In this document: positions 20,173 to 48,692 of the stretch, one piece after another
How positions within the stretch are numbered: the first letter of the stretch is position 1
Layout of the letters: the number at the start of each line of letters is the position of its first letter
Virus record (IMG/VR): IMGVR_UViG_3300032296_003714
Location: 1-64,000 of that record
DNA: 64,000 nt
DNA from: a virus
Reading direction: 5' to 3' (one strand)
The notes under the pieces: generated by a model
Databases searched by the model: none
Told to the model about the DNA's origin: nothing
Seen by the model: the letters and a program-made list of their open reading frames with translations, nothing else
Program-made: the position numbers and the translations under genes

Positions 20173-20173
20173 A

Positions 20174-23935: not shown

Positions 23936-23937
23936 AA

Positions 23938-27462: not shown

Positions 27463-27464
27463 AA

Positions 27465-28121
27465 TTATAATATTTTATAATCATCAGTTAGTGGTTTTTC
27501 ATTTACATCTATTCTTTCACCAATAAATCTACCGTATTCTCTTTGTATTGGAAATGGTTTTTTTTCAAAAAAATCATCATGAGTACATCTATCGTTTTTT
27601 AATTCGGAGTAAACCATTTTTAAAAATGTCTGGTCATTACCATAATTGTGTACTTTTGATTTACTAAAATTATAAATCATTTCTGTTAATGGTAGCACAC
27701 CTGATTTTATACCCCACATTCCACCTAATATACCCAACTGATTATTTCCTGCCGGTATTCTATGATAAGGATGGTCTCTCATTACATGTAATGATTTACC
27801 ACTTTTAATCCATTCATCTACAGCCAAAGACTCTCGTAAACTTATTCTAGAATCCGCATCTCGAAAAATTGCATATTTACAATCATGCAAATCTACGGCA
27901 AAAAATCTCCAAAACATTCCATAGATAGATTTATCTAAAAATAATCTTGTTTCAATATTTCTATTTTGAAGTTCTTTTATTGTATTTGTTGGTACTGAAT
28001 CGTCAAAGAAAACTATCATTTTCCAATTTGGATAAAACTGTTCCATTAATTCGGCGTTTCTAATTATTCCCACATTATAAATTGGATTTTCACCCCATAA
28101 ACTAAAACTAACGTAATTCAT
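27465..28121 (-). CDS. Putative glycosyltransferase (GT-A fold)
   Basis: VSFSLWG, MFWRF, FRDADSR, MRDHP.H, ILGGMWG, DQ.FL motifs. Confidence 0.65.
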   Translation of the reverse strand: MNYVSFSLWGENPIYNVGIIRNAELMEQFYPNWKMIVFFDDSVPTNTIKELQNRNIETRLFLDKSIYGMFWRFFAVDLHDCKYAIFRDADSRISLRESLAVDEWIKSGKSLHVMRDHPYHRIPAGNNQLGILGGMWGIKSGVLPLTEMIYNFSKSKVHNYGNDQTFLKMVYSELKNDRCTHDDFFEKKPFPIQREYGRFIGERIDVNEKPLTDDYKIL

Positions 28122-28132
28122 ATTAAAACAAA

Positions 28133-28882
28133 TTAAAAAATAGAAATGTCGCTACCACCTAAAACTTTTCTCATGAAAAAATATCCTTCATCTTTTAGTT
28201 TTTTAATTAAACTTTCGGTTATTTCCTTAGGTTTATAAGATGACGGCATAGTATGGTTATTACCATTCCAATCAACAAATGTTAAACTTTTATTTATAAC
28301 AAAAGAATCATTTAATAAATTTAAATGATTTAAAAATGTAACATAAGAATGTTCTTCAGGATGAGGAGAGTAATTAAAAATGTCTTTTAAAACAGAAATA
28401 TTATTTTTAAATAACTTAGAATGTTCTCTATTCAAAATAACCCATTGTGAGCTGATATACCAATTATCAGATGTCCAATTATAGAGATTGTTAATTAATT
28501 TCATTCTTTGTAAGAAATAAGGTATGTTAGCATTACCGTATCCTATTATTGAGTAGTTTTCTTTACCTGAAAAATAAAAATACATTTCCTCAAAGCTACA
28601 TATCGGTATTGTAGTTTCAGAAACCAAAATAAAGTGTTTGTTGTCTTCATCTTTTAATGCCTCGTTAAAAAGCAATTGTTGGGCCTCCACTAAACTAAAA
28701 GACCCCCATGCAGTTTCTATAGAATCAATTTGAAATTCAGAGAATTTATTGTGGGTGAAATCAGGTTTCGCATGGAAATACAAACTATATTTGTCTTTAT
28801 CCGCTGAACTAAAAAAAGTATCCCAAAGTTTTTCTTGTGTTAATTCTTTCTGTGTAAGAAATAAAAAGGCAATCTTATTCAT
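28133..28882 (-). CDS. Core-2/I-branching beta-1,6-GlcNAc-transferase-like (GT14/Branch)
   Basis: KIAFLFLT, YSLYFH, TAWGSFSLVEA..LL..AL, FILVSE..IP, SQWVILNREH, EEHSY.T, TFVDW, FFMRK. Confidence 0.85.
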   Translation of the reverse strand: MNKIAFLFLTQKELTQEKLWDTFFSSADKDKYSLYFHAKPDFTHNKFSEFQIDSIETAWGSFSLVEAQQLLFNEALKDEDNKHFILVSETTIPICSFEEMYFYFSGKENYSIIGYGNANIPYFLQRMKLINNLYNWTSDNWYISSQWVILNREHSKLFKNNISVLKDIFNYSPHPEEHSYVTFLNHLNLLNDSFVINKSLTFVDWNGNNHTMPSSYKPKEITESLIKKLKDEGYFFMRKVLGGSDISIF

Positions 28883-29628
28883 TTTAAATAACTATATAAC
28901 ATTTTAGCTCTTTCAGGAGGTAAGGGGGAAGTACCATGAGAGTTTAGTTGAACATGTATCATTAAATTCCTTGTTAAGAATACTTTGAGATTCTCTTTAA
29001 AATAATAGAAACTTAAGGACCTTTCATGCATATGTCCGCAATATTGGCTTTGACTAATATCGTCAATAAAGTTACAGAACCAATCTATATAGTTTTTAAG
29101 AACTTCTGTTCTCCATGTTGAATTGCTTGATGAACTCCACAACATTTGTGGGTTAGATTTCTCAAGTTCATGTATGTATTCCGCAATATTATACCCAAAC
29201 TTTTTTTCTATAGAATCAACAAGTTCTTTGGTATATTGAGTTTGAGTAAGATACACAATATCGTTAACAAACATTGGGAAGTATCCTACAAAGTCAAAAT
29301 CCTTTTTTAACATTTCTTTGTTTATTTCAGGAAATTCGGGGACATAATGTATATCATATTCGAACAAATTAACATATTCACAATCCAAATATCCATTTTT
29401 ATATAATGCATACCATCCAGTAAACGATGTTAATTTTGGTAAATGCTCTATGTTGTCCTCCAAATTCCTGGCGATAATAACATTCTCAAGATGTTCTATT
29501 TTATCACAAGGTCTATTTCCTAAAAACACATATTTAAACCCTTCTAGCGTTTGAAATCTATTTTTCTCAACAAAATCTAATAGGATTTCTTGGTCATGTA
29601 TGAATACAAAATTCAATAAAGTTTTCAT
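28879..29628 (-). CDS. Putative glycosyltransferase
   Basis: VNLFEYD, HMHER motifs; in GT operon. Confidence 0.5.
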   Translation of the reverse strand: MKTLLNFVFIHDQEILLDFVEKNRFQTLEGFKYVFLGNRPCDKIEHLENVIIARNLEDNIEHLPKLTSFTGWYALYKNGYLDCEYVNLFEYDIHYVPEFPEINKEMLKKDFDFVGYFPMFVNDIVYLTQTQYTKELVDSIEKKFGYNIAEYIHELEKSNPQMLWSSSSNSTWRTEVLKNYIDWFCNFIDDISQSQYCGHMHERSLSFYYFKENLKVFLTRNLMIHVQLNSHGTSPLPPERAKMLYSYLK

Positions 29629-31565
29629 TTTTCAAAAATTTTTTGCCATAGTTTAAGTATTTCTTCATTGGTTAAAGTGGACACCTCATTTTCAGTTTCT
29701 TCGTTTCCAAAAAATTTAGTACCGGTTGAATAACACTCATCTTTAACTAAACAAGCCACTTCTCCTTTTGATGAATGATAAACTCTACCTACTGAATCGT
29801 ACATAGATTGTTTATCGGTACTAGAACCAACAAAAACAACTTTAGTATTATCTATTTTAGGTTTTACATAATTTTCAAAATATCGGTCATCACCAATTTT
29901 ACCGAATAATAACACTTTTTCACAACCATCATTCAACGCCCTTTCAATGGAAAGGTGTGTTTGTTTTCTATCTTCAATAGCACCAATAACTCCAGCAATT
30001 AAGTCTAATTCTTCTTTATTTTTAGATACTAAATTTTCTTTTAAATTAGGAATTATGGTATAATTTCCTGTATAATTCTGATGAAAATCTTTATGTTGTT
30101 GGTGTAAAAAAACAGCTTCATCCCAATACCAAACTACTTTTGAAAAGTCATACCACCATTTTTCGTGTGAACAACAAATTACTTTTTTAACGGGAGGTCT
30201 TTCTTTGAAATTCATTACATGGCATAGTAAAATGTCATCTTTATCAAATTTTAATTCGCTGGAAAACGCTGATTTACATTTATCTATATGGTAATCATAT
30301 GGTCCATAAAAAGTGCAATCATATCCGTTATTATTAAAAAAGTTGGTTAAATTTATTTGGGCAATTGTTGACCCCCCTTGTTCACTATAACCTGTTATTA
30401 TTTTTATTTTTTGTTTTGTTGTTCCTACAAGTTCCGAATCCAAAGAGTCAAAAACCACATCCTTATTGAATTCGTCTAAAGTTACAGATTTCTTTAATGA
30501 GTTGTGAGATAATAATATTTTATCTTTAGACAATATTATTTTTGGTATATCTGAATATAACTTACATAATTGTACCGTATCGTAGTTATTCAAAATTATT
30601 ATAAGGTCTTGGTTAAGTTGACTAACTTTGTACAACATATTTGGTTGAGAAACCTTTACACCATCAGGTGTATTCAAAGACCATCGACCGTCACCAATTT
30701 TATAACCTGGAGGATTATTAAGAGAGTAGTAATTTATATTATGTTTAGAAAGATATCCTCTGACAAACTTTTCGTTGTCTGTCATAATACTTAGCTCCCA
30801 ATTATATTCTAAACATTTTTCAACCAAAGACTTTAATTCTGATGGAATTATAAATTGTTGAGACGCTGAAATTAAAACTTTGAGTCTTTCACTTTTATCT
30901 CTTAATAAGAATTTAGGAAGTTGTGATTCAAATTTTTTAGAGAATATTTCTCTATTATCTTCCCATTGTTGATTTGTAACGCCAATAGATTTATGAGTAA
31001 TTCTTATATTTGTAATAACACCAATCTTTACTCCTTCCAAAAAATTTTGGAAACAAAATTCAATATCATAGAAATGAAATCCATCTACAGTTTCGTCAAA
31101 ATTCTTTTTAATTTTTTTCTTGTCCATGGCAATAAAAAGACCATCAACAACCACACATTCTTTTACATTATTTCCAAATCCTGAAGAATATTTTGATTCC
31201 CATTTTTTTCCTTCATGTTCGTGATTAACAATCCCAAACATTTTTTTTCTATCTTCCCACCATCTACCACTTTTTGGCATGTAGGTTGTTCCTGCCATAC
31301 CCAAGATACCATATTCACTTTTTTCAAAGTGTTTTATTAGTTTATGATACCAAGACGTTGTGTCAAAATAAATGTCATCGTGGCATAATACCACGATGTC
31401 ATTTGATGATTCTTTTAGAATTTCATTATAAACCTGACTCAAAGATTTTTGACCATTGTTAACCTTCTCGATAACTTCAATATTTTTGAACCCTGAACTT
31501 TTTTTCAAGTATTCAACAAACTCAGGATTGTGAACTCTGGTGGAAAATCCAATTGTTAAACTCAT
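29625..31565 (-). CDS. Multidomain glycosyltransferase (GT2-like N-term plus GT-B-like C-term)
   Basis: VLCHDDI, VVDGLF, FHFYD.EF in N-domain; GGST, IGAIEDRKQ, YHSSKGE in C-domain. Confidence 0.8.
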   Translation of the reverse strand: MSLTIGFSTRVHNPEFVEYLKKSSGFKNIEVIEKVNNGQKSLSQVYNEILKESSNDIVVLCHDDIYFDTTSWYHKLIKHFEKSEYGILGMAGTTYMPKSGRWWEDRKKMFGIVNHEHEGKKWESKYSSGFGNNVKECVVVDGLFIAMDKKKIKKNFDETVDGFHFYDIEFCFQNFLEGVKIGVITNIRITHKSIGVTNQQWEDNREIFSKKFESQLPKFLLRDKSERLKVLISASQQFIIPSELKSLVEKCLEYNWELSIMTDNEKFVRGYLSKHNINYYSLNNPPGYKIGDGRWSLNTPDGVKVSQPNMLYKVSQLNQDLIIILNNYDTVQLCKLYSDIPKIILSKDKILLSHNSLKKSVTLDEFNKDVVFDSLDSELVGTTKQKIKIITGYSEQGGSTIAQINLTNFFNNNGYDCTFYGPYDYHIDKCKSAFSSELKFDKDDILLCHVMNFKERPPVKKVICCSHEKWWYDFSKVVWYWDEAVFLHQQHKDFHQNYTGNYTIIPNLKENLVSKNKEELDLIAGVIGAIEDRKQTHLSIERALNDGCEKVLLFGKIGDDRYFENYVKPKIDNTKVVFVGSSTDKQSMYDSVGRVYHSSKGEVACLVKDECYSTGTKFFGNEETENEVSTLTNEEILKLWQKIFEK

Positions 31566-36691: not shown

Positions 36692-38722
36692 ATGTCATAT
36701 CAAAATATAAATCAATATGTGTTTAGAAGGTTATACCTAAAACCACTTAGGGAAATAACTGATATATCGTTAGCCTCAGATGAAAAAGATTATGACCAAG
36801 AGGTTATTTTCTCTCCACTATTGATAGGTGAAGATGATGGTAATAGAATGCCATTAAGGTTTGATTTCAATAGTTCAGGTACAACAGATTGTGTTAATTG
36901 TGGTGATTTTGATAAAGATACAGTAGTTTCTGAAAATTATTGGAACCCTTTAGATTTAGATTTAATAAATTGTGGAACAATAACTGAAATATGTGATGTT
37001 GGATTGACAGGTATCGATAACGGTCTCGTTAAAGCTTTTTCGGGTGAAACAATAGAATTAAATAGTGGATTATATACCTCACGTGCAGATAGATTCTCAA
37101 GATACAAATACGATAGAAGATTTAAAATGCACCCGATTACAGGGTTTACCACGTCATCAGATAGAATATTAGATGATGATTCATACACATATGAAGTAAG
37201 TTTTGATAATGATTCTAATGTTATTGGAGATTATATAAAATTTAATGGGGGATTTTATCAAGGTTTTTATAAGTCATTCGGATATGATTATCAGGTATTA
37301 CCTGAAAGGTATAATTTAGGTTGGACTTCAGAGTTCATGTTGAGATATAGATGGACAGGAGATACTGACACGGGTTTGAATGCAAGATATCCAAATAACA
37401 AGGGAACATTTTTTTATTATGGTGCTAGAGCGGAAAACAAGTTTTACCATTATGCCGATGGCTCTCCATTGAGTGATAGTGGGTATACAAGGGTTACACA
37501 AGGGTTAAATTGTTTGGAAACTTGTGGTTGTTCTTATACTGCAAATACTGCATCAACGTGTAACTATGTTTACCAACAATCAGGTGTAACGTCACAAAAT
37601 TGTAGTTGCGGTCAATGCCCTTGTAACTGTACTACGTTTGCTTTAATGCCGGAAAAAGACCCTAAATGGGATGAGGTTTCTAATGCCATGTCTTTGAGGT
37701 TGAGTGGGGATACAGGTAGTCCTAAACTTTGTGTTAAAACATATAGAATAACTGGTGATTGTGAAACAACCGGAACTTGTGCCACAGGTTTAACATACAC
37801 AACAGGAACAAGTGTAACTGAATGGTGTTCTACAAGGGGTATTTTTGATGACTGTTCTGGTAGTACATATTCAGAAACTGAAAGGTGGGTACAAATAGAT
37901 GCGGTCTTTCAAAGAAACACCTATTTAGATGATTGTGATTTACTATATAAAGGAGGTTTGGGTGAACTTGTAAAGACAGTATATACCGCCAGCTCAGCTA
38001 ATAATAGTGTTAGCTTAATACAGCCACCTATAACCCAAGAAATAGATTATGACCCAGCAACTGTCGAGGTTGTGGAAATGAATGAAAGATGGTTAGAAGA
38101 AAAAAATTATAGATTAGGAACTCTCAAGTTTTATGTTAATGGTAAATTGTTCTTGGTAGTAAATGGGTTTGAAGAAATTATACCAAGACCTTTAAATACT
38201 CTCAGAGAAACTCAAATAGGGGTTGCATATAACATATCATTAGGAGGAGGTACTCAAGGGTTACATGATAATTTAACTGTAACAGATTGTGCAACGACAT
38301 TGACAGGAATGACTTATCAACAAGACCCTGAATGTTTGCCAACTGAGGTTTTGGATGAAACATCTTACTCAGGTCTAACAACAAATATAAAACTTGAAGA
38401 GTACTTTGGGGGTAGCTTTTATGGTGACATTAGTGCTTTCAGGATGTATACAGAGCCGTTAAATGGAGCTCAGATAAGACATAATTTCAAATTATTAAAA
38501 GATAAATATTCATTATTAGACCCGTTCTGTTTGAAATGTGACACTCCAATAATTCCAATACCAACAACCCCCACTCCCACACCGACTCAAACAAGTACAA
38601 CAACCCCCACTCCCACACCGACTCAAACACCAACTCCTAGTTTTGTAGATAATAATTTCTTATTACAAGAAAATTTAGACTATTTATTACAAGAGGACGG
38701 AAATAAAATTATTATAACATAA
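36692..38722 (+). CDS. Cys/Thr-rich virion protein with LamG/ConA-like elements and TP-repeat tail
   Basis: LKFYVNGKL, F.GDIS.FRMY.EPL...QI; PTPTPTQT repeats; C-terminal LLQENLDYLLQEDG. Confidence 0.7.
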   Translation: MSYQNINQYVFRRLYLKPLREITDISLASDEKDYDQEVIFSPLLIGEDDGNRMPLRFDFNSSGTTDCVNCGDFDKDTVVSENYWNPLDLDLINCGTITEICDVGLTGIDNGLVKAFSGETIELNSGLYTSRADRFSRYKYDRRFKMHPITGFTTSSDRILDDDSYTYEVSFDNDSNVIGDYIKFNGGFYQGFYKSFGYDYQVLPERYNLGWTSEFMLRYRWTGDTDTGLNARYPNNKGTFFYYGARAENKFYHYADGSPLSDSGYTRVTQGLNCLETCGCSYTANTASTCNYVYQQSGVTSQNCSCGQCPCNCTTFALMPEKDPKWDEVSNAMSLRLSGDTGSPKLCVKTYRITGDCETTGTCATGLTYTTGTSVTEWCSTRGIFDDCSGSTYSETERWVQIDAVFQRNTYLDDCDLLYKGGLGELVKTVYTASSANNSVSLIQPPITQEIDYDPATVEVVEMNERWLEEKNYRLGTLKFYVNGKLFLVVNGFEEIIPRPLNTLRETQIGVAYNISLGGGTQGLHDNLTVTDCATTLTGMTYQQDPECLPTEVLDETSYSGLTTNIKLEEYFGGSFYGDISAFRMYTEPLNGAQIRHNFKLLKDKYSLLDPFCLKCDTPIIPIPTTPTPTPTQTSTTTPTPTPTQTPTPSFVDNNFLLQENLDYLLQEDGNKIIIT

Positions 38723-38728
38723 AAGAAC

Positions 38729-40675
38729 ATGCCCAATTTACCCATATCTCAACTACCGTTAGCGGTTTCAGGACAACCTGATTCTTTGATGGTAATCGTA
38801 AATCACGATATTGTACCAACAGGTATAACCAATTCAATTTATTTCTCCGCACTGACTCAACAACTTTCAGGAAGTTCAGGAAGTTCAGGAACAAGCGGTA
38901 CGTCTGGTAGTTCAGGGACAGATGGTAGTTCAGGGACAGATGGTAGTTCAGGGACAGATGGAAGTTCAGGAACTAGTGGAATTTCAGGAATAGACGCGGC
39001 GGCGACGTTACGATGGATATTACAAGATACTTCAGGAGGAAATCCTTCATCTGCCACATATTTTACTTCCTGTTGCAATTCTGGTTTATTGAACACAGGG
39101 AGTTTCAAGTTCGCATATGGAAGTACAACCGTTCCATCTGAAGGATTTTGGGACACCATTAACAATGGGACTAATCCTTATTTACAAATTGTTAAGGTTG
39201 GTGACTCAAACGTAATTGGATTGTATGAAATTTCCTCCGTAAGTTATTCCGACCCAGGAAATGGGGGTCAATATAATGTTACTTGTGTTGGTATACCAGC
39301 AATTTATGCTTCAGGTCTTTGGGGTTTAGGCGATACGTATGCTGTATCTTTTATTCTCAATGGTACTTCTGGTAGTTCGGGGTCTAGTGGAACGAGTGGT
39401 TCTTCAGGAAGCTCTGGAACTGATGGTAGTTCTGGTTCTAGTGGAACGAGTGGTTCTTCAGGAAGCTCTGGAACTAATGGTAGTTCTGGTTCTAGCGGAA
39501 CAAGTGGGTCATCAGGAAGTTCTGGTACTGATGGTAGTTCAGGTTCAAGCGGAACGAGCGGTTCTTCGGGGACATCAGGTTTTTCAGGCGACTTATATAG
39601 AACAACTTCATCAACTCTTCTTACAATCCAAACGGGTATCACAGGTACTTTCGTAATTGGTACTAATTTGGGATATAGTGTGGCACAAGATGTGATAATA
39701 GCATATGATTTATCAAATCACATGATTGGTATGGTTGTAAGTTATAATCCTGTTAATGGTGACATGGTTGTTAATGTTCAAACTATTACTGGTTCGGGTT
39801 CATATTCTTCTTGGTTAGTTAATTTGGCAGGCGCTGCAGGAGGTGATGGAAGTTCAGGGACTAGTGGAAGTAGTGGTTCATCGGGTATCTCGGGCTCATC
39901 AGGAACAAGTGGTTCTAGTGGAAGTTCGGGAACCGATGGTAGTTCTGGTTCATCAGGAAGCTCAGGTTCAAGTGGGTCTTCTGGAACTTCAGGCAGTAGT
40001 GGTAGCTCAGGAACATCTGGTAGTTCAGGTTCCAGTGGTACTGATGGTTCTTCTGGTAGTTCTGGCTCGAGTGGTTCTTCAGGTTCATCAGGAAGTAGCG
40101 GTAGTTCAGGAACATCTGGTAGTTCAGGTACAAGTGGTACATCACCAGTATTACCTCTTCCTGTTGTTTTCGGATTATTTGCACAAACAGGAAATAGTGT
40201 AACAGTAAGCGGAACAACAACTGAATCAACTCTTATTGATGGTGGTATTGGAACATTAAGTGTACCTGCAAGTGGTTTCACTGTCGGTGATAGTTTTAGA
40301 GCGGATATGGCTGGCGTATTAAATGTTGGTAATAACCAAACCATAAGAATAAGAGTTAAATCGGGTTCAGTTATTTTGCTTGATAGTGGTGCTCAGGCAA
40401 TAACAAATATCACCGAAGACATTTGGGGTCTTTCGATAAACTTCACTGTAAGACAGGTTGGGCCTGCGGGAGTCGCTTCTATTGTTTCTTTAGGTGCGTT
40501 CCATTATACAAAAACCACTAATGGAACCGTGGAAGGTTTTTCATTCAACACGGTCAATAACACAACATTTGATACTACAGTGAGTAATACATTAGATATT
40601 ACTGTGGAGTGGGGAAGTACAAGTGCGTCAAATAGTATTTATTCTGACATATTTGTATTAAATAAGATTTATTAA
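38729..40675 (+). CDS. Collagen-like (Gly-Ser-Ser/Gly-Thr-Ser) tail fibre/appendage protein
   Basis: Three G-X-Y blocks (GSS, GTS, GTD) separated by globular domains; N-terminal PISQLP. Confidence 0.8.
   Translation: MPNLPISQLPLAVSGQPDSLMVIVNHDIVPTGITNSIYFSALTQQLSGSSGSSGTSGTSGSSGTDGSSGTDGSSGTDGSSGTSGISGIDAAATLRWILQDTSGGNPSSATYFTSCCNSGLLNTGSFKFAYGSTTVPSEGFWDTINNGTNPYLQIVKVGDSNVIGLYEISSVSYSDPGNGGQYNVTCVGIPAIYASGLWGLGDTYAVSFILNGTSGSSGSSGTSGSSGSSGTDGSSGSSGTSGSSGSSGTNGSSGSSGTSGSSGSSGTDGSSGSSGTSGSSGTSGFSGDLYRTTSSTLLTIQTGITGTFVIGTNLGYSVAQDVIIAYDLSNHMIGMVVSYNPVNGDMVVNVQTITGSGSYSSWLVNLAGAAGGDGSSGTSGSSGSSGISGSSGTSGSSGSSGTDGSSGSSGSSGSSGSSGTSGSSGSSGTSGSSGSSGTDGSSGSSGSSGSSGSSGSSGSSGTSGSSGTSGTSPVLPLPVVFGLFAQTGNSVTVSGTTTESTLIDGGIGTLSVPASGFTVGDSFRADMAGVLNVGNNQTIRIRVKSGSVILLDSGAQAITNITEDIWGLSINFTVRQVGPAGVASIVSLGAFHYTKTTNGTVEGFSFNTVNNTTFDTTVSNTLDITVEWGSTSASNSIYSDIFVLNKIY
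38869..40142 (+). repeat. Three coding G-S-S/G-T-S repeat blocks
   Basis: About 38869-38990, 39362-39590 and 39848-40142; includes perfect 3x ggtagttcagggacagat at 38906-38959. Confidence 0.9.
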
Positions 40676-41751: not shown

Positions 41752-43020
41752 ATGAGCAAAATTTTTATTCAAATTGCTTCCTATAGAGACCCTCAGTTGG
41801 TTAACACTATAAAGGATATGATGGCAAATGCAAAAAAACCTGAAAATTTAGTTTTGGGTATTGCGAGACAATTTTCAGAAACAGATGGGTTTGACAACCT
41901 AGATGAATGGAGAGATGATAAAAGATTTAGAATTCTTGATGTCCCTTATCAAGAAGCGAAAGGGGTATGTTGGGCAAGACATTTAGTTCAACAACTTTAT
42001 AAAGGGGAAAAATATACAATGCAAATTGATTCTCACATGAGGTTTGAAAAAAACTGGGATGAGACATTAATTAAAATGATAAAGGGTCTACAAAAGGATG
42101 GGTATAAGAAACCTCTACTTACGGGTTATGTACCCTCCTTTGACCCTGATAATGACCCAGCAGGAAGAGCACAAGATGCTTGGAGAATGACTTTTGATAG
42201 ATTTATTCCTGAGGGTGCAGTTTTCTTTTTACCTGAAACAATACCAGGGTGGAGAGAGATGAAAAAACCCGTAACCGCAAGATTTTATTCGGCCCACTTC
42301 TGTTTTACTTTGGGTGAGTTTTCAACAGAAGTACAGCACAATCCTGAATATTATTTCCATGGTGAAGAAATTTCCATCGCAGCAAGAGCATATACTTGGG
42401 GTTATGATTTATTTCATCCACATATTCCTGTTGTATATCATGAGTATACTCGTAAAGGTAGAACAAAGCAATGGGACGATGATAAGGAATGGGTTAAAAA
42501 GAATCAACATTCACACTTGATGAATAGAAAGTTGTTTGGTATGGATGGTGAAAAACAAGAAGGTCATGATGGTGAATTTGGATTTGGCCCTGTCAGAAGT
42601 CTGAGAGATTATGAAAAATACGCGGGTCTGTTGTTTGAAAGACGCTCAGTACAAAAGTATACGTTGGATAAAAATTACCCACCAAATCCGTACAACTACG
42701 ATTCTGAAGAGGAATGGATGGAAGATTTTACTAATATCTTCAAACATTGTATTGATATCAGCTATTCTCAAGTACCTGAAACAGATTATGATTTTTGGGT
42801 AGTTGCGTTCCACAATGATAAAGATGAAACTATTTTTAGAAAAGATGCGGATAAAAATGAAATTGCGGGTTATATGAGAGACCCTGATAAATATTGTAAA
42901 GTATGGAGAGAGTTTCCAACCAAAGAGTTACCAAAGTATTGGGTTGTTTGGCCACACTCAGAATCTAAAGGATGGTGTGATAGAATTACAGGTCAATTAA
43001 ACCATAGTGTTGTTAGTTAA
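41752..43020 (+). CDS. GT60-like polypeptide/hydroxyproline alpha-GlcNAc transferase
   Basis: IFIQIASYRD, AKGVCWAR, YTMQIDSHMRF..NWD, F.GEEIS..AR..T.G.D.F.P....YH.Y typical of the Skp1-Hyp GlcNAc-T (Gnt1) family. Confidence 0.85.
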   Translation: MSKIFIQIASYRDPQLVNTIKDMMANAKKPENLVLGIARQFSETDGFDNLDEWRDDKRFRILDVPYQEAKGVCWARHLVQQLYKGEKYTMQIDSHMRFEKNWDETLIKMIKGLQKDGYKKPLLTGYVPSFDPDNDPAGRAQDAWRMTFDRFIPEGAVFFLPETIPGWREMKKPVTARFYSAHFCFTLGEFSTEVQHNPEYYFHGEEISIAARAYTWGYDLFHPHIPVVYHEYTRKGRTKQWDDDKEWVKKNQHSHLMNRKLFGMDGEKQEGHDGEFGFGPVRSLRDYEKYAGLLFERRSVQKYTLDKNYPPNPYNYDSEEEWMEDFTNIFKHCIDISYSQVPETDYDFWVVAFHNDKDETIFRKDADKNEIAGYMRDPDKYCKVWREFPTKELPKYWVVWPHSESKGWCDRITGQLNHSVVS

Positions 43021-43458
43021 ATGGTATTCATATCACATAGAGGAAATATTGACGGAAAAAATGAAGTAAGAGAAAATTCTCCATATTACGTTATAGAGGC
43101 TCTTGCCATGGGATATGATGTGGAAGTTGATGTTTGGTTTGTTGATGGTGAATTTTGGTTGGGTCATGACGGACCACAATATAAAACTGATTATAAATTT
43201 TTAGTCAATGAAAAATTGTGGTGTCACGCAAAAAATATTGAAGCTTTAATGGAAATGAAAAAATATGTCATTCATTATTTTTGGCACGAAAATGACACCG
43301 TAACTCTAACATCTAAAAATTATGTATGGGCTTATCCGACTAAAGATTTTCCCAACAATACAATTGCCGTCTTACCTGAAATGTTCAATTCTGAAATAAA
43401 TCAATGTAAAGGAGTGTGTTCTGATTTCATAAAAGAATATAAAGAAAAGTATGATTAA
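43021..43458 (+). CDS. GDPD/PLC-like phosphodiesterase-fold protein
   Basis: ISHRGN, DVEVDVW, LGHD, LWCHAKN, GVCSD. Confidence 0.7.
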   Translation: MVFISHRGNIDGKNEVRENSPYYVIEALAMGYDVEVDVWFVDGEFWLGHDGPQYKTDYKFLVNEKLWCHAKNIEALMEMKKYVIHYFWHENDTVTLTSKNYVWAYPTKDFPNNTIAVLPEMFNSEINQCKGVCSDFIKEYKEKYD

Positions 43459-44827
43459 GTTAATTATTTTTGATTTGGATGGAGTTTTAGTAGAGGCAAA
43501 AAAAATTCACTATGATTGTTTGAATCAAGCTCTCGAAGAAGAAGGAGAACAGTATGTTATAGGATGGGACGAGCATTTAAGTATTTATGATGGATTAAAG
43601 ACAAACCAAAAACTAGAATTACTTTCTAACAACAAAGGTCTTCCCGTTAATTCGTATAAAAGAATATGGGAAAAAAAACAAATTCTTACATTAGAATCAC
43701 TGAATAAATTAAATCCAACAGAGCACATAAGAAACTGTATAAGTAGTTTATCTAAAGAAGGATATAAGATTGTTTGTTGTTCAAATAGTATTAGGAAAAC
43801 TGTATTAACGGTTTTAAGTAAACTAGATATAATTCAATATTTTGATTTGATTTTATCAAATGAAGATGTGAAAAACAGCAAACCTCATCCTGAAATATAT
43901 TGGAATGCAATTTCTCACATGTCTTGTTTTCCAGATGAAACACTAATTATTGAAGATTCACCTTATGGTTTGTTAGCCGCAAGTAGGAGTAATTCTATGG
44001 TATATCGTGTTAATTCTCCTAGTGACATAACATATGATAATATAAAGAATCAAATAAATTTTATTACTAAAAACAGTAAGATGGTTAAACATAAGTGGTC
44101 TGACAAAACATTAAATGTACTTGTCCCGATGGCGGGTGCTGGAAGCAGATTTGAAAAAATGGGATATACTTTTCCAAAACCTTTGATTGATGTTATGGGA
44201 AAACCCATGATTCAAGTTGTGGTTGAAAACCTTAATATAGATGCCAATTTCATTTATATTGTACAAAAATCTCATAGAGAAAAATATAATTTAGATACTC
44301 TATTAAATCTTATAACACCAAATTGTAAAATTGTGGAAGTAGATGGATTAACTGAAGGTTCAGCTTGCACAACACTATTAGCCAAAGACTTAATTAATAA
44401 TGATAGTCCATTGATATCAATGAATTCTGACCAATTTATTGAATGGGATTCAAGTGAATTTATGTATAAAATGAACGAGTCCAACTGCGATGCAGGTATT
44501 TTAACATTCAAAGCAACCCACCCTAAATGGTCATTTGTTAAAATAAATGATTTGGGTTATGTAACCGAAGTTGCAGAAAAAAAACCAATTTCTGATATTG
44601 CAACTGTTGGGATTTATTTTTGGAGAAGGGGGTCTGATTATGTAAAATATGCGGAACAAATGATTTTAAAAAATATTAGAGTTAACAATGAATTCTACAT
44701 TTGTCCGGTTTTTAATGAGGCAATTTTAGATAATAAAAAAATAAAAATATTCGATGTTGATAAAATGTGGGGTATCGGTACCCCTGAAGATTTGAATTAT
44801 TTTTTAGAAAATTACATAACTATATAA
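43451..44827 (+). CDS. HAD phosphatase - nucleotidyltransferase fusion
   Basis: FDLDGVL, KPHPEIY, IEDS in N-half; PMAGAGSRF...PKPLI, EKKPIS, EFYI.P, GIGTPEDL in C-half. Confidence 0.88.
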   Translation: MIKLIIFDLDGVLVEAKKIHYDCLNQALEEEGEQYVIGWDEHLSIYDGLKTNQKLELLSNNKGLPVNSYKRIWEKKQILTLESLNKLNPTEHIRNCISSLSKEGYKIVCCSNSIRKTVLTVLSKLDIIQYFDLILSNEDVKNSKPHPEIYWNAISHMSCFPDETLIIEDSPYGLLAASRSNSMVYRVNSPSDITYDNIKNQINFITKNSKMVKHKWSDKTLNVLVPMAGAGSRFEKMGYTFPKPLIDVMGKPMIQVVVENLNIDANFIYIVQKSHREKYNLDTLLNLITPNCKIVEVDGLTEGSACTTLLAKDLINNDSPLISMNSDQFIEWDSSEFMYKMNESNCDAGILTFKATHPKWSFVKINDLGYVTEVAEKKPISDIATVGIYFWRRGSDYVKYAEQMILKNIRVNNEFYICPVFNEAILDNKKIKIFDVDKMWGIGTPEDLNYFLENYITI

Positions 44828-44828
44828 A

Positions 44829-45677
44829 ATGAATAATAACTTTTGTTTTCTGGTTTATACTAACGAAACGTATCTCCCAATTGCTAATCTATCCATGTCA
44901 GAATTTGATAGATTTAATCCCAATTTCCCTATAAAAAGATATTTGGTTTCAAATAAAATAGGCGATTTTGAATTTAAAGCACAAAATACAACTTTAATAG
45001 ATTGTGATATTCCGTTTGATGGTTCAGGAAATCACTTTTCTAAAACAATGATGAAAGCCATCTCTAATATTAGTGAGGAGTATATTATATTTTTCTGTGA
45101 TGACTATTTGCCAATAGGCGGAACTAAATGGAATTTATTGTCAGAATTAATTGATATGATAAAAAATGAAGATATAGACTTCATATCTTTTTCATACATG
45201 CCCCAAGCAAAGCAATGGAAAAAATTTCATGCAACGCTTCCTTCAGCACCAGATAAGAATTTATATTATATTCCGGATAACTACATGTATCTGTACAGCG
45301 TCCAGCCATGTATTTGGAAAAAATCTTCATTGTTAGATATCTTATCTCATAATCCAGAAATGTCCTTACATCATTTTGATACAACAAATTTAAAAAATAG
45401 GGAAGGATTTGTTAGAACTATGGATGTTCATACTTCGACATGGAATCCATACCCACAAGGCTCACAAACCTATGGATTTAAATGTTTAAGTACGGATTAT
45501 GGTGGATTTGATGAACAAGAAAATTATGATTGTTTTATATTTCCTTACGTTGAGATAGTAAGACATGGGTTTTTTAATATGTGGAGAGAAACAAATACCA
45601 AAATATTTTTAGAAAAATATATTGTTGATAATAACATTGATGCTGATGAGCGTTTAAAAAGATTTATATACAAATAA
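44829..45677 (+). CDS. Putative glycosyltransferase (GT-A fold)
   Basis: YIIFFCDDY, YSVQPCIWKK. Confidence 0.55.
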   Translation: MNNNFCFLVYTNETYLPIANLSMSEFDRFNPNFPIKRYLVSNKIGDFEFKAQNTTLIDCDIPFDGSGNHFSKTMMKAISNISEEYIIFFCDDYLPIGGTKWNLLSELIDMIKNEDIDFISFSYMPQAKQWKKFHATLPSAPDKNLYYIPDNYMYLYSVQPCIWKKSSLLDILSHNPEMSLHHFDTTNLKNREGFVRTMDVHTSTWNPYPQGSQTYGFKCLSTDYGGFDEQENYDCFIFPYVEIVRHGFFNMWRETNTKIFLEKYIVDNNIDADERLKRFIYK

Positions 45678-45693
45678 AAATCCACACCATTTT

Positions 45694-46551
45694 ATGAATA
45701 TTGAAGTAATGTTTGAAAAACCACATACTTTGTGGAATGTTGTGTGGGTTTTTGAAAAATTTTTTCACTGGTTTAAAGAAAATTACCCTGAACATAATAT
45801 TACTTTTAAAAATAGTGACCCAGATAAGAGAGGAAATCCATGTAGTCCGTATTCACCTCATGTGATGGTTATAAGAAATTTAGATAATTTAAAATATATC
45901 ATAGTTTCATATTGGGATAGGGCATACGAACTTACATGGCCAGGTTGCGGATGGGATATTGAAAATAGAGTTGAAATAATAACATCTTCAGGTGTCCATT
46001 CCCCAATGGACTTTACACCCTTTTCTTATCTTTGTTATTCAAAGGATTTCGAACAAATTGCGAGTGTTGAAAGAATTCCTTTTGATAAAAAAGAAAAAAA
46101 TTATTTATTTTTTAGAGGGTATCTGTATCATCATAGAAAAATAATGCAAAACCATTTTCCTGAATATTTTACCGAAGAAAGAAAAGTCTCTTTCGATTTA
46201 TTCAAAGAATTTAATGAGAATAAGATTAATCTTAGTATTGATGGTGCAGCTGAAATTTGTCATAGGGATATTGAGATTCTTTCATCTGGTTCTGTTTTAT
46301 TAAGACCTGAGTTAAATCAAATTTTTCATGACCCATTAATTCCTGATTATCATTATATAAGTGTTCCAAAAAGTAATGACCCGGTAACACAATTTAAATT
46401 ATTATTAGAAAAGTACGAAGAAGTTAAAAATAACGATGAATTATTATCCACAATATCAAACAATGGATATGAATGGTATGAAAGAAATGGAACTGTAAAA
46501 TCAAATGTTGATATTTTAAAAAAAATTATAAATTTAGGTAAATTAGAATAA
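45694..46551 (+). CDS. Putative glycosyltransferase (GT-B, CgeB/GT90-like C-terminus)
   Basis: LFFRG, LSIDGAAEICHRDIEIL..G..L, L.PD.HY, I.NNG.EWY. Confidence 0.6.
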   Translation: MNIEVMFEKPHTLWNVVWVFEKFFHWFKENYPEHNITFKNSDPDKRGNPCSPYSPHVMVIRNLDNLKYIIVSYWDRAYELTWPGCGWDIENRVEIITSSGVHSPMDFTPFSYLCYSKDFEQIASVERIPFDKKEKNYLFFRGYLYHHRKIMQNHFPEYFTEERKVSFDLFKEFNENKINLSIDGAAEICHRDIEILSSGSVLLRPELNQIFHDPLIPDYHYISVPKSNDPVTQFKLLLEKYEEVKNNDELLSTISNNGYEWYERNGTVKSNVDILKKIINLGKLE

Positions 46552-46554
46552 ATT

Positions 46555-47946
46555 ATGAATGAAGTTGTTAAATATTGGGATGGGAATCTTATATTACGCC
46601 ACATCGGTAAAGAGTTAAATTGGTTATTTAGTTATCTCGATGATAAAAAAATTGAATCTGTTTCTTTCATTGATATTGGAGGTAATGTTGGAAAATTTTA
46701 TGATGAGGTTTCAAAAAAATATAATATAAAGAAGTGTGTTATTGTTGAACCTTCTAAAGTTTTATATGACTATATGTCTAATAAATTTGAAAACAACGAT
46801 TCTGTAGAAATACACAATTTTGCAATTTCAGATAAAAATGGAAGTTTTCAATTTTACGATAGTGCAAGTATGTTTGTTGACATATTTGAAAAAGAAGAAA
46901 TAAACGATTCAATAAACTTAGGATTGTCTAAGTTGTCTCATGATGTACCTGGTGATACTATGTGTTATAGTATGGATTTCTTTATGAGAGAAATTTGTAA
47001 CATACAACCTAATGAAATAGATTTTATAAAAATTGACACAGAAAATTCTGATTTACAAATTATTAAAAGCATGACGAATTTTTTTGTGGAGAATAAAATT
47101 CGACCTCTAATTCTTTTTGAGAATAACTATCATAACTCTATTAGTGAAACTGAAGCTTTGGCTATTATAAATAATTTTTGTAATTTATGTGGGTATGAAA
47201 AGATTGATTTATCAATACCAGGTGACAATATCCTAATTCCGCTAAAAAAAGAAAAAACTAATAATTTAACTGAAGTTTATAGAATATTACAAAGTTTTAA
47301 AATCGATAAAAAATTTTGGAGATATCAAAACTTAACGGGTGAGGATTATGATATTAGAAGGTCTAAACCGGCACCATACATTAAAACCGCAATTGAAATT
47401 GCTAAAGCGTTAGACTTAAAAAATGTTGTTGAAATTGGTTCTTCAAGATATTCAGTAACTGACCCATGTTTGAAATATTTTGATTTGTCTAATAATGCCT
47501 TTTTGTCTCCACCTTGTTGTTGTGACGGACATGGAGGCTTTTTTTGGTCAAGAGCGGGGTTTGAAGTTTATACTGTAGATATTGACGAAAATTGTAAAAA
47601 TGGGGTCTTGTGGTCTTATGGTAATCTTAATATTCCGGTTCCTGAAAATCTACATGTTGAAATACCTAGAGATGGGATTGAGTTCTTACAATCTTTTGAT
47701 AAAACTATAGACGTTTTATTCTTAGATGGTTGGGATATCGGTACTCCTGAATATGCTGAAAAACATTTAGAGGCGTATTTGGCTGCTGAAAATAAATTAT
47801 CTTCAACCCATTTAGTCTTAATCGATGATACTGATTACATTACCCAAGATGGAGGTAAAGATAAACTATTATCTCCTTATCTAATTGATAAGGGATATAT
47901 TCCATTATTTAATGGAAGGCAAACATTATACATGAAATATGAGTAA
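46555..47946 (+). CDS. Double methyltransferase (FkbM-like plus Methyltransf_24-like)
   Basis: FIDIGGNVG..VEP..IDFIKIDTE; VVEIGS..LFLDG..LIDD. Confidence 0.8.
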   Translation: MNEVVKYWDGNLILRHIGKELNWLFSYLDDKKIESVSFIDIGGNVGKFYDEVSKKYNIKKCVIVEPSKVLYDYMSNKFENNDSVEIHNFAISDKNGSFQFYDSASMFVDIFEKEEINDSINLGLSKLSHDVPGDTMCYSMDFFMREICNIQPNEIDFIKIDTENSDLQIIKSMTNFFVENKIRPLILFENNYHNSISETEALAIINNFCNLCGYEKIDLSIPGDNILIPLKKEKTNNLTEVYRILQSFKIDKKFWRYQNLTGEDYDIRRSKPAPYIKTAIEIAKALDLKNVVEIGSSRYSVTDPCLKYFDLSNNAFLSPPCCCDGHGGFFWSRAGFEVYTVDIDENCKNGVLWSYGNLNIPVPENLHVEIPRDGIEFLQSFDKTIDVLFLDGWDIGTPEYAEKHLEAYLAAENKLSSTHLVLIDDTDYITQDGGKDKLLSPYLIDKGYIPLFNGRQTLYMKYE

Positions 47947-48691: not shown

Positions 48692-48692
48692 T

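What the first reader, a model, noticed from the sequence alone, without database searches (positions are those of the whole stretch)
36692..38722. [ST]-G-x-T motif enriched in outer virion proteins: candidate glycosylation sequon
Hand count. The 676-aa protein has 11 [ST]GxT (SGTT, SGET, TGFT, TGDT, SGYT, SGVT, SGDT, TGLT, SGST, TGMT, SGLT); a rough composition-based expectation is about 1. The 12886-14388 protein has 6 plus SAMT/SALT. The sheath has 4 plus SADT/SANT/SAAT. The capsid insertion has SGYT, SGST, SAIT and SANT. More occur in the fibre (TGIT x2, SGTT, SGFT), 16131-18236 (SGKT, SGTT, SANT x2) and gp15 (TGNT). I found none in the 925-aa polymerase, SNF2 helicase, scaffold or gp13. 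The motif differs from the Bacteroidota host sequon D-[ST]-[AILVMT]. Inference: a phage-specific modification signal read by the phage GTs.
Basis: partly seen in the sequence, partly recalled or inferred. Interest (0 to 1): 0.8.

Follow-up and report, generated by a model that had tools for sequence, protein, structure and literature searches.

The report
Candidate sugar-attachment motif on phage virions
The outer particle proteins of this uncultured giant T4-like phage and many relatives carry the four-residue pattern Ser/Thr-Gly/Ala-x-Thr four to ten times too often, and the excess mostly goes with one phage sugar-transferase gene. It is therefore probably a tag for a phage-made sugar coat, though no chemistry has been done.

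Summary
The count is correct: the 676-aa protein has 11 [ST]GxT against about 1.1 expected, and none of 50,000 shuffles reached 11. The motif is better written [ST]-[GA]-x-T.

- **Specific to the motif.** In an unbiased scan of all 8,000 a-b-x-c patterns over 17 virion-type proteins, SAxT, SGxT and TGxT rank 1-3. The reversed motif, the other reading frames, non-virion proteins and T4's virion proteins show no excess.
- **A trait of the lineage.** Related giant phages are either motif-rich genome-wide (2.0-2.6x, 4-12 enriched proteins each) or flat (0.9-1.3x, none). Six shared virion protein families give 204 observed against 46 expected in the rich genomes and 35 against 24 in the poor ones.
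- **Not required by the fold.** Poor orthologues carry K, E, D or N at the aligned positions.
- **One gene fits the split.** The only gene whose distribution matches it is a PF13712 GT-A glycosyltransferase (window 29625-31565). One complete motif-rich genome, and probably its clade, lacks it.

Some of the excess in fibres and in an Ig-like head-decoration protein comes from repeat or domain consensus, not a sequon.

My best reading is a cytoplasmic virion O-glycosylation sequon (confidence about 0.5). It has no chemical support. This scan has already noted similar Ser/Thr-Gly motifs in other T4-like phages.

The parts
36692..38722 (+). 676-aa virion protein (P0001). It has a ConA/LamG-like jelly roll with long Cys-rich loops, a Pro/Thr linker (about aa 618-660) and a short C-terminal tail. 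It carries 13 [ST][GA]xT sites at aa 62, 117, 150, 222, 263, 283, 286, 297, 338, 365, 389, 538 and 560. A site at residue i starts at nt 36692+3(i-1), for example 36875, 37040, 37139.
   Evidence: - Counts and shuffles.
- AF2 model: pLDDT 82; 11 of 13 sites lie in coil.
- Fold search gives only weak lectin-like jelly-roll matches.
- All 11 [ST]GxT sites are kept in 91-121 of 121 close homologues, with S/T swaps and a free x position.
12886..14388 (-). 500-aa virion-type protein of unknown fold with 8 motif sites (aa 67, 71, 115, 190, 224, 241, 341, 354). It has no detectable similarity to the 676-aa protein.
   Evidence: - 8 against 0.70 expected.
- BLASTP against P0001 finds nothing.
- In 121 homologues, 7 of 8 sites are kept. 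Site 71 switches SAMT to TGMT. Site 115 reads SG[N/T/D/S/A]T, with S, G and T invariant.
6014..7816 (+). gp23-like major capsid protein with 4 motif sites (aa 170, 191, 251, 324). Three lie in the insertion that does not align with T4 gp23.
   Evidence: Pfam Gp23 match, E = 1.9e-71. Alignable ranges against T4 gp23 are 22-104 and 288-573. Orthologues score 3-5 in motif-rich genomes and 0, 0 and 1 in poor ones.
60230..63424 (+). 1064-aa tail sheath with 7 motif sites (aa 143-659). All lie in the central part that does not align with T4 gp18; this corresponds to the outer domains.
   Evidence: PHROG 23 and Pfam sheath matches. Alignable ranges against gp18 are 11-100 and 781-1064. Orthologues score 3-10 in rich genomes and 1-2 in poor ones.
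16131..18236 (-). 701-aa virion-type protein with 4 motif sites (SGKT, SANT twice, SGTT).
   Evidence: 4 against 0.7 expected.
29625..31565 (-). 646-aa two-domain glycosyltransferase. The N-terminal GT-A domain is PF13712, with invariant H62 and D64 in an HDD motif. The C-terminal half looks like a GT-B/GT4 domain. This is the candidate enzyme that reads the motif.
   Evidence: - Pfam PF13712, E = 4.6e-27.
- 45-sequence alignment A3.
- AF2: residues 1-360 at pLDDT of about 75 or more, mostly above 90.
- Foldseek: GT-A enzymes, including majastridin, ppGalNAc-T2 and LH3.
- It is the only ORF whose distribution matches the motif-rich/poor split.
- It is the only glycan gene of the window that the other motif-rich genomes share.
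22841..29628 (-). Variable glycan cassette: UDP-galactopyranose mutase, two methyltransferases, a GT47/RXYLT1-like gene, a Fringe/GT31-like gene, a Branch/GT14 gene and unknowns. These are probably glycan-elongating or decorating enzymes, not the motif reader.
   Evidence: Pfam. Homologues are found in 0-12 of 80 related loci and in none of the eight whole genomes.
41752..50363 (+). Second glycan island: GT60 (PF11397), a HAD plus nucleotidyltransferase fusion, an FkbM methyltransferase, an HtrL-like gene and unknowns. It is lineage-specific and does not track the motif.
   Evidence: Pfam. GT60 is absent from all 16 loci L086-L101, whose 676-aa orthologues still carry 5-20 motifs where complete. 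It is also absent from all eight whole genomes.
38729..40675 (+). Collagen-like tail fibre. It has four [ST]GxT but no excess once composition is allowed for.
   Evidence: 4 against 4.71 expected. Pfam Collagen and PHROG tail-fibre matches.

Best explanation
[ST]-[GA]-x-T, usually preceded by a hydrophobic residue, is most likely an O-glycosylation sequon. It sits on surface loops and outer insertion domains of virion proteins. A soluble phage enzyme would read it in the host cytoplasm before or during assembly. The best candidate for that initiating enzyme is the PF13712 GT-A glycosyltransferase at 29625-31565. The lineage-specific cassettes (GT14, GT31, GT47, GT60, HtrL, the methyltransferases, UDP-Galf supply) would then extend and vary the glycan.

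**Shown here:** the motif excess; its direction; its restriction to virion proteins; purifying selection on the motif; its lineage-wide gain or loss across unrelated protein families; and its co-distribution with the GT.

**Inferred, not shown:** that any Ser or Thr is modified; which residue is the acceptor; the sugar; and the identity of the enzyme.
For: 1. **Statistics.** 11 against 1.1 in the 676-aa protein, 0 of 50,000 shuffles. SAxT, SGxT and TGxT are the top three of 8,000 patterns over 17 virion-type proteins (93 against 23.5). The reversed motif is flat. Other reading frames give 0-11 against 70. T4 virion proteins give 27 against 26. Non-virion proteins are flat.
2. **Selection on the motif as such.** Across two unrelated families, positions 1, 2 and 4 are kept with S/T and G/A swaps while x varies freely; examples are SAMT/TGMT and SG[NTDSA]T. 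About 50 alignment columns carry the motif in some homologues, so sites turn over.
3. **Not needed for the fold.** Motif-poor orthologues have K, E, D or N and similar residues at the aligned positions, and Gly at position 2 in only 17%. In the AF2 model, 11 of 13 sites are in coil. Capsid and sheath sites lie in outer insertions.
4. **A genome-level trait.** Whole-proteome ratios are 2.0-2.6 with 4-12 enriched ORFs in G000, G007, G008, G015, G021 and G014. They are 0.9-1.3 with none in G001, G005 and G013. SGxT is the first or second pattern of the whole proteome in G008, G015, G021 and G014. Six orthologous virion families give 204 against 46.1 in rich genomes and 35 against 24.2 in poor ones. 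Internal and non-virion families in the rich genomes give 17 against 14.7.
5. **Phylogenetic profile.** Of 429 ORFs in G008 and 394 in G015, only the PF13712 GT is present in at least 3 of 4 other rich genomes and absent from all three poor ones. Among records at least 75% complete, the GT is present with 3-19 motifs in the orthologue of the 676-aa protein (n = 8) and absent with 0-2 (n = 5) (Mann-Whitney p = 0.002; relatedness not corrected for).
6. **Precedent.** SgtA, a soluble GT-A enzyme, puts beta-O-GlcNAc on the Thr of Gly-Pro-Thr repeats of BclA3 (PMC7157674). Mycobacteriophage virions are glycosylated by phage GTs (as cited in PMC12619734).
Against: - There is no chemical evidence of any modification.
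- G014 is 100% complete, is motif-rich (2.24x; six families 20 against 6.8) and has no PF13712 GT. Three 59-68% complete relatives with 5-6 motifs in the orthologue also showed none. So either another enzyme reads the motif there, or the GT link is only shared ancestry.
- The rich/poor split involves few independent evolutionary events, so co-distribution is weak evidence.
- In fibres of relatives and in the Hoc-like protein, many hits come from tandem-repeat or Ig-domain consensus: 'SGGTVSG...GLTANTISATTY', 'TGLTAGTY', 'TGGTAPY'. This shows the motif can be structural.
- The GT could act on DNA or on a glycan. Its fold matches are generic GT-A.
- Solvent exposure was not computed.
Confidence: 0.5

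Rival explanations
1. The motif is a lineage-specific structural habit with no modification. Phi-[ST]-[GA]-x-T would be a favoured loop or strand-end cap, or a fibre repeat element, that spread through the beta-rich virion proteins of these phages. A Ser/Thr/Gly-rich surface might also serve directly for adhesion. On this view the GT association is shared ancestry.
For: - The motif is part of a roughly 36-aa tandem unit in S74-chaperone fibres of relatives, and of Ig/SprB-like domain consensus in the Hoc-like protein.
- Hydrophobic residues at position -1 (46%) suggest the end of a strand.
- G014 and its clade are enriched without the GT.
- The poor genome G005 over-uses NGx[TVI], a classic turn.
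Against: - T4 virion proteins show no excess.
- Orthologues with the same fold in poor lineages carry charged or polar residues at the same positions and rarely Gly.
- G/A interchange argues against a Gly needed for backbone geometry.
- A purely structural idiom does not explain simultaneous gain or loss across six unrelated families, including the globular capsid and sheath insertions. Nor does it explain strict Thr at position 4: [ST]GxS and [ST]GxV are not enriched.
Confidence: 0.25
2. The motif is read by something other than a glycosyltransferase. Candidates are a kinase, another modifying enzyme, a cross-linking enzyme, a protease, or an assembly chaperone encoded by the motif-rich lineages.
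For: The data require only a lineage-specific selective pressure on a directional four-residue motif in virion proteins. G014 shows that the PF13712 GT is not strictly needed.
Against: The unbiased profile returned no candidate other than the GT. The window is packed with sugar-nucleotide and GT genes. G014 itself carries RmlD, a Stealth-GT2 fusion and a further GT2.
Confidence: 0.12
3. The pattern is an artefact of picking the motif after looking, of amino-acid composition, of local Ser/Thr/Gly-rich patches, or of a DNA-level signal.
For: Virion proteins are richer in Ser, Thr and Gly than other proteins.
Against: It is the top pattern in unbiased scans of this genome and of four others. The reversed motif is flat. 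Off-frame counts are 0-11 against 70. Codons at the sites vary. The excess was replicated in independent families and genomes.
Confidence: 0.03

Closest known systems
Mycobacteriophage virion glycosylation by phage-encoded glycosyltransferases (Freeman et al. 2023, as described in PMC12619734; the original paper is not held in the library)
   Same: Phage-encoded GTs act in the host cytoplasm and decorate structural virion proteins. A shielding role has been proposed.
   Different: In mycobacteriophages the glycans sit on the C-termini of the capsid and tail-tube subunits, in siphoviruses of Actinobacteria. Here the sites are dispersed four-residue motifs in loops of many virion proteins of T4-like giant myoviruses. 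The candidate enzyme (PF13712) is different, and there is no chemical evidence.
SgtA / BclA3 of Clostridioides difficile (PMC7157674)
   Same: A soluble GT-A enzyme adds O-GlcNAc to a Thr that follows Gly-x, and accepts Ser as well. The core G-x-T is contained in [ST]-[GA]-x-T.
   Different: The SgtA acceptor is a collagen-like Gly-Pro-Thr repeat, and the enzyme carries TPR repeats. Here G-x-T without the leading Ser/Thr is not enriched (about 76 against 85, derived). The acceptors are globular loops. The GT carries a GT-B-like second domain instead of TPRs. Sequence relatedness to SgtA was not tested.
Bacteroidota general O-glycosylation, sequon D-[ST]-[AILVMT] (established knowledge; Fletcher, Coyne, Comstock and colleagues)
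   Same: A short sequon is scattered over many surface proteins, and the predicted host phylum may be the same.
   Different: That system works in the periplasm by transfer from a lipid-linked glycan. Its sequon is not enriched in these virion proteins (55 against 52).
Proteoglycan xylosyltransferase site Ser-Gly(-x-Gly) and EOGT site [TS]-G in EGF repeats (established knowledge)
   Same: The acceptor hydroxy-amino acid is followed directly by Gly or another small residue.
   Different: There are no acidic flanks and no Cys framework. The GT14 gene of the window has no homologue in any related locus or genome.
Earlier notes of this scan on other T4-like phages: [S/T]-G-S, [S/T]-[G/A]-S, Ser-Gly and Gly-x-Thr excess in virion proteins
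   Same: The same kind of observation was made, with the same proposed reading, in other uncultured T4-like phages. In one case the excess also tracked a single GT.
   Different: The motif differs (Thr at +3 is obligatory here), and so do the genomes. Those notes are unchecked AI notes, not independent evidence.

Membership tests
Bacteroidota general O-glycosylation | Sequon D-[ST]-[AILVMT] on the acceptor proteins | tested here: not met
   55 observed against 52 expected in virion-type proteins. The enriched motif is different.
Bacteroidota general O-glycosylation | Periplasmic transfer to exported proteins | not testable with these tools
   Phage virion proteins assemble in the cytoplasm (established knowledge). 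Signal peptides were not looked for.
Phage virion glycosylation (mycobacteriophage type) | The phage encodes its own glycosyltransferases | tested here: met
   PF13712, PF11397, PF02485, PF02434, PF03016/PF24785, PF09612 and PF00535 all match.
Phage virion glycosylation (mycobacteriophage type) | Glycans at the C-terminal extensions of the capsid and tail-tube subunits | tested here: not met
   Motif sites are internal: capsid aa 170-324, sheath aa 143-659, and loops of the 676-aa protein.
Phage virion glycosylation (mycobacteriophage type) | Glycan shown chemically on virion proteins | not testable with these tools
   The phage is uncultured and known from sequence only.
SgtA-type GT-A protein O-glycosyltransferase | Soluble GT-A catalytic domain | tested here: met
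   PF13712, E = 4.6e-27. AF2 GT-A fold, top Foldseek match 2qgi (TM 0.65).
SgtA-type GT-A protein O-glycosylotransferase | TPR substrate-binding domain and a collagen-like G-P-T acceptor | tested here: not met
   No TPR match. The C-terminal half looks like GT-B/GT4. The acceptors are not collagen-like, and the collagen-like fibre is not enriched.
Xylosyltransferase (GT14) Ser-Gly sequon | A GT14 enzyme co-occurs with the motif, and the site has acidic flanks | tested here: not met
   A Branch/GT14 homologue is found in 0 of 80 loci and 0 of 8 genomes. The flanks are hydrophobic, not acidic.
Structural tandem repeat of tail fibres | Motif copies at a regular period within a repeated unit | tested here: not met
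   - In the 676-aa protein the [ST]GxT spacings are irregular: 55, 33, 72, 41, 34, 41, 27, 24, 149, 22.
- No repeat family was found.
- The feature is met for fibres of relatives and, as domain consensus, for the Hoc-like protein.
ConA/LamG-like lectin fold (the 676-aa protein itself) | Jelly-roll beta-sandwich | tested here: inconclusive
   The AF2 model has pLDDT 82. Foldseek gives only weak matches (TM 0.17-0.34) to lectin-like jelly-roll domains. Some homologues carry an extra PF13385 domain.

The most novel reading that the evidence does not exclude
A large family of T4-like giant phages, probably infecting Bacteroidota, coats its particles with sugars through a defined four-residue O-glycosylation sequon, Phi-[ST]-[GA]-x-T. 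A small soluble PF13712 GT-A enzyme would write it onto folded virion proteins in the cytoplasm, and swappable gene cassettes would diversify the glycan. Lineages that lost the enzyme have purged the sequon from capsid, sheath and baseplate proteins. This would be the first defined sequon for phage virion glycosylation, and a new bacterial-type cytoplasmic protein O-glycosylation system.
Probability: 0.4. Interest if true: 0.85.

Novelty: new variant of a known kind. Interest (0 to 1): 0.72.

Why it matters
Glycosylation of phage particles has been shown chemically in very few phages, and no attachment motif has been defined. If this motif is a sequon, three things follow:

- Glycosites could be predicted from sequence across thousands of uncultured phage genomes.
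- It would explain why giant phages carry variable glycosyltransferase cassettes.
- It would yield a compact, soluble enzyme-plus-tag pair for glycosylating proteins in the bacterial cytoplasm.

The clear contrast between motif-rich and motif-purged sister lineages also offers a natural experiment on the costs and benefits of a viral glycan coat, such as shielding from defences or grazers, adhesion, and host range.

Tried and rejected
**Explanations tested and rejected**
- Composition artefact: rejected by shuffles, by per-protein expectations and by the flat reversed motif.
- DNA-level signal: rejected because codons vary and the other five frames hold 0-11 hits against 70.
- A general property of phage structural proteins: rejected by T4.
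- A fold requirement: rejected for the 676-aa family and five other families, because motif-poor orthologues exist.
GT60 is absent from the flanks of 16 loci whose orthologues still carry 5-20 motifs where complete.
- Homology between the 676-aa and 500-aa proteins: none.

**Steps that led nowhere**
- Pfam, PHROG and NCBIfam give nothing for the 676-aa or 500-aa protein.
- tblastn against cultured phages: no match.
- PDB sequence search with the GT: no match.
- Literature search for SGxT, TGxT or SAxT as a motif: nothing relevant.
The context of motif-less homologues was obtained through IMG/VR loci and whole records instead.
- The P0168 scan found nothing.
- The Freeman et al. paper is not held in the library.
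Full report
**What the window is.** It holds 64 kb of a 107-kb record (G000) from an uncultured, 32% G+C, T4-like myovirus. The capsid is gp23-like (6014-7816) and the sheath is at 60230-63424. The window holds two glycan gene islands.
- Island 22841-31565: UDP-galactopyranose mutase, two methyltransferases, GT47/RXYLT1-like, Fringe/GT31-like and Branch/GT14 genes, and a 646-aa PF13712 GT.
- Island 41752-50363: GT60, a HAD-nucleotidyltransferase fusion, an FkbM methyltransferase and an HtrL-like gene.

Relatives in IMG/VR are giant phages of 280-410 kb.

The 676-aa ORF (36692-38722) contains exactly the 11 [ST]GxT listed, against 1.13 expected. None of 50,000 shuffles reached 11; the maximum was 8 and the mean 1.1. 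Removing the Pro/Thr linker changes nothing. The 500-aa ORF has 6 against 0.59 (2 of 50,000 shuffles). The other listed instances are all there, but the collagen-like fibre is not enriched (4 against 4.7).

The motif was chosen after looking, so I scanned without prior choice.
- Within the 676-aa protein, SGxT is the strongest of all two- and three-residue patterns (7 against 0.38, p = 1.8e-7; next best 1.6e-4).
- Over 17 virion-type proteins of the 107-kb record, low-complexity fibres excluded, SAxT (22 against 4.2), SGxT (28 against 6.9) and TGxT (29 against 7.8) are the top three of 8,000 a-b-x-c patterns. TAxT is sixth.
- Among the 400 [ST]-a-x-b patterns, only G..T (57 against 14.8, p = 5e-17) and A..T (36 against 8.7, p = 4e-12) stand out.

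The motif is therefore [ST]-[GA]-x-T, with 93 observed against 23.5 expected.

**Controls.**
- The reversed motif T-x-[GA]-[ST] is at expectation (24 against 23.5).
- Non-virion ORFs are flat: [ST]GxT 7 against 7.0 and [ST]AxT 2 against 4.7.
- Codons at the sites vary. The five other reading frames of ten enriched genes hold 0-11 hits against 70 in the coding frame. The signal is at protein level.
- T4's 26 virion proteins show 27 against 26.2, so this is not a general property of myovirus structural proteins.
- The Bacteroidota sequon D-[ST]-[AILVMT] is not enriched (55 against 52).

**Selection acts on the motif.**
- The 676-aa protein belongs to a very abundant family: more than 2,500 hits, with an N-terminal part of about 620 aa at 65-95% identity followed by variable C-terminal modules.
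- In 121 close homologues, all 11 sites are kept in 91-121 sequences, with S/T swaps at position 1 and a free x.
- In 149 distant representatives, five sites are kept in about 60%. G/A swaps are common (SGLT/SALT, SGYT/SAYT). About 50 alignment columns carry the motif in at least three sequences, so sites turn over.
- The unrelated 500-aa family (no similarity) behaves the same way. Seven of eight sites are kept. One switches SAMT to TGMT. One reads SG[N/T/D/S/A]T, with S, G and T invariant, in an alignment that is 87% conserved overall.
- The flanks add only a preference for a hydrophobic residue at -1 (46%).

**Structure.** The AF2 model of the 676-aa protein (pLDDT 82, pTM 0.83) is a jelly-roll with long loops. 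Foldseek gives only weak matches to lectin-like jelly-roll domains. Eleven of the 13 motif starts lie in coil, one is the last residue of a strand, and one is in a short helix.

In the capsid, three of four sites lie in the stretch that does not align with T4 gp23. In the sheath, all seven lie in the stretch that does not align with gp18. In T4 these correspond to the outer domains (established knowledge).

**Part of the excess is plainly structural.** This is an important caveat.
- The 18 hits in the Hoc-like 710-aa protein beyond the window (G000 103349-105481) come from Ig/SprB-type domain consensus ('TGLTAGTY', 'TGGT[AS]PY').
- In relatives, S74-chaperone fibres carry a roughly 36-aa tandem unit, 'YLNLSGGTVSGNTVFxSGLTANTISATTYQNL', with four to five hits per unit.

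So the raw covariation between the 676-aa orthologue and its neighbours (Spearman 0.47, n = 69) is inflated by fibres.

**The decisive comparison uses whole genomes and orthologous globular proteins.** Distant orthologues of the 676-aa protein carry between 0 and 20 motifs. A motif-free clade is nested among motif-bearing ones. I fetched eight whole records.

| Record | Proteome ratio, observed/expected | ORFs enriched at p < 1e-3 |
|---|---|---|
| G000 | 2.55 | 4 |
| G007 | 2.02 | 8 |
| G008 | 2.26 | 12 |
| G021 | 2.14 | 7 |
| G015 | 2.26 | 10 |
| G014 | 2.24 | 5 |
| G001 | 0.90 | 0 |
| G005 | 1.14 | 0 |
| G013 | 1.30 | 0 |

- The reversed motif is 1.0-1.4 everywhere.
- In unbiased proteome scans, SGxT is the top pattern in G008, G015 and G021 and the second in G014. 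It is absent from the top eight in G001, G005 and G013.
- For six orthologous virion families (capsid, 500-aa, 676-aa, sheath, 991-aa, 1613-aa), the five GT-bearing genomes total 204 against 46.1. The three poor genomes total 35 against 24.2, and G014 20 against 6.8.
- Seven internal or non-virion families in the rich genomes total 17 against 14.7.
- At columns that carry the motif in rich genomes, the poor orthologues show words such as KTDI, EKKK, EEYE and EDNK, with Gly at position 2 in only 17%.

The sites are therefore tolerant, hydrophilic and presumably exposed positions. The motif is a lineage-specific overlay on them, not a requirement of the fold.

**Which gene goes with the trait.** I asked which ORFs of G008 (429) or G015 (394) have homologues in at least three of four other rich genomes and none in G001, G005 or G013. 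One gene came back each time: the PF13712 glycosyltransferase, the orthologue of window 29625-31565.
- Of the 18 glycan genes of the window, it is the only one with homologues in the other motif-rich genomes. GT60, GT14, GT31, GT47, HtrL, the methyltransferases and GLF have none.
- It is syntenic upstream of the 676-aa gene in all 15 of the L086-L101 loci whose upstream flank reaches its position.
- Among records at least 75% complete, it is present in G006, G007, G008, G010, G015, G016, G017 and G021. Their 676-aa orthologues carry 13, 19, 15, 9, 4, 4, 3 and 7 motifs.
- It is absent from G001, G002, G005, G013 and G014, whose orthologues carry 0, 0, 1, 2 and 2. Mann-Whitney p = 0.002, not corrected for relatedness.

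The enzyme has a GT-A domain with invariant H62 and D64 (an HDD motif) and a GT-B/GT4-like second half. Distant lineages keep only the roughly 230-aa GT-A domain. The model has pLDDT of about 75 or more, mostly above 90, over residues 1-360. It matches GT-A enzymes: majastridin best, then K4CP, B4GALNT1, LH3 and ppGalNAc-T2. This fits a nucleotide-sugar transferase but does not point to a particular acceptor.

**The exception.** G014 is complete, motif-rich and lacks any PF13712 gene. Three 59-68% complete relatives with 5-6 motifs in the orthologue also showed none. G014 does carry RmlD, a Stealth-GT2 fusion and a further GT2 that the poor genomes lack. Another enzyme may therefore serve there. 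Equally, the GT link may be only shared ancestry. A roughly 265-aa GT2 (window 19369-20214) is present in all nine genomes and so cannot explain the trait.

**Reading.** The most economical explanation is a cytoplasmic O-glycosylation sequon on exposed loops of virion proteins. A conserved initiating enzyme would read it, with the PF13712 GT as the best candidate, and variable cassettes would extend the glycan.

Two precedents exist. SgtA, a soluble GT-A enzyme, glycosylates the Thr of G-P-T repeats (PMC7157674). Mycobacteriophage virions are glycosylated by phage GTs (as cited in PMC12619734). Neither uses this motif or this acceptor architecture. A full-text search found no report of SGxT, TGxT or SAxT as a modification site.

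The main rival is a lineage-specific structural idiom with no modification. It is supported by the fibre and Ig-domain cases and by G014. It is weakened by the orthologue comparison and by the strict Thr at position 4. I put the sequon reading at about 0.5, the structural idiom at 0.25, another kind of reader at 0.12 and artefact at 0.03.

**Context within this scan.** Earlier AI notes describe [S/T]-G-S, [S/T]-[G/A]-S, Ser-Gly and Gly-x-Thr excesses in virion proteins of other uncultured T4-like phages. The phenomenon has therefore been seen before on other DNA, but those notes are not independent evidence. Notes on this genome proposed a mucin-type system on the Pro/Thr tracts next to GT60. 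My data show that the GT60 island is lineage-specific and does not track the [ST]-[GA]-x-T motif.

**Limits.**
- There is no chemistry.
- ORFs were called crudely: ATG start, at least 80-90 aa.
- Expectations assume independent residues within each protein.
- The number of independent evolutionary transitions is small.
- Model coordinates could not be read.

Noticed in passing
L129:2174-7573, L119:13595-19396, L114:11900-13282 (relatives): Fibres with an S74 chaperone domain carry a tandem unit of about 36 aa, 'YLNLSGGTVSGNTVFxSGLTANTISATTYQNL', with four to five motif hits per unit. One 2060-aa fibre of G014 has 100 hits.
   Followed up: partly
window 19369-20214 (-): A GT2 of about 265-280 aa (PF00535) is conserved in all nine whole genomes compared, whatever their motif state. 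It is a core glycosyltransferase with an unknown target, possibly DNA.
   Followed up: partly
G014 (L294:3347-5017, L286:10301-11953, L287:15893-16852): The motif-rich genome that lacks the PF13712 GT carries a Stealth (CR1/2/4) plus GT2 fusion, another GT2 and RmlD. These are possible substitutes.
   Followed up: partly
window 36692-38722, aa 255-330: The 676-aa protein is Cys-rich (3.7%). It has clusters such as CSCGQCPCNC in loops of low model confidence, which might form disulfide or metal knots.
   Followed up: no
window 38540-38722 and homologues P0002-P0121: After the conserved stretch of about 620 aa and the Pro/Thr linker, homologues carry different C-terminal modules (LamG PF13385, PF18483, PF01483, PF03382, and others). 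The family looks like a platform with swappable distal domains.
   Followed up: no
G001, G013, G007 whole proteomes: CPxC, CPxH and HGxF are over-represented to an extreme degree (for example 36 against 0.9). This points to a greatly expanded zinc-finger/HNH-like gene family.
   Followed up: no
G005 whole proteome: NGxT, NGxV and NGxI are over-used (53 against 25 for NGxT) in a motif-poor genome. Some motif-poor homologues of the 676-aa protein from other sources have VNGY where rich ones have VTGYT.
   Followed up: partly
G016:C1:365050-365700: The PF13712 GT homologue of this complete 413-kb genome has an in-frame TAA. It may be a pseudogene, a sequencing error or a recoding event.
   Followed up: no
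G000 98361-99440 (beyond the window): A 359-aa protein of unknown family has 8 motif sites against 0.69 expected, the highest density after the 676-aa protein. Orthologues in G007, G008 and G021 carry 5-7, and the poor genomes have no orthologue.
   Followed up: partly
literature: PMC12619734: The 'moraphages' are large aquatic phages with predicted Flavobacteriia hosts, T4-like core genes and four core GT orthogroups. They may be the same lineage as this one or a related one.
   Followed up: no
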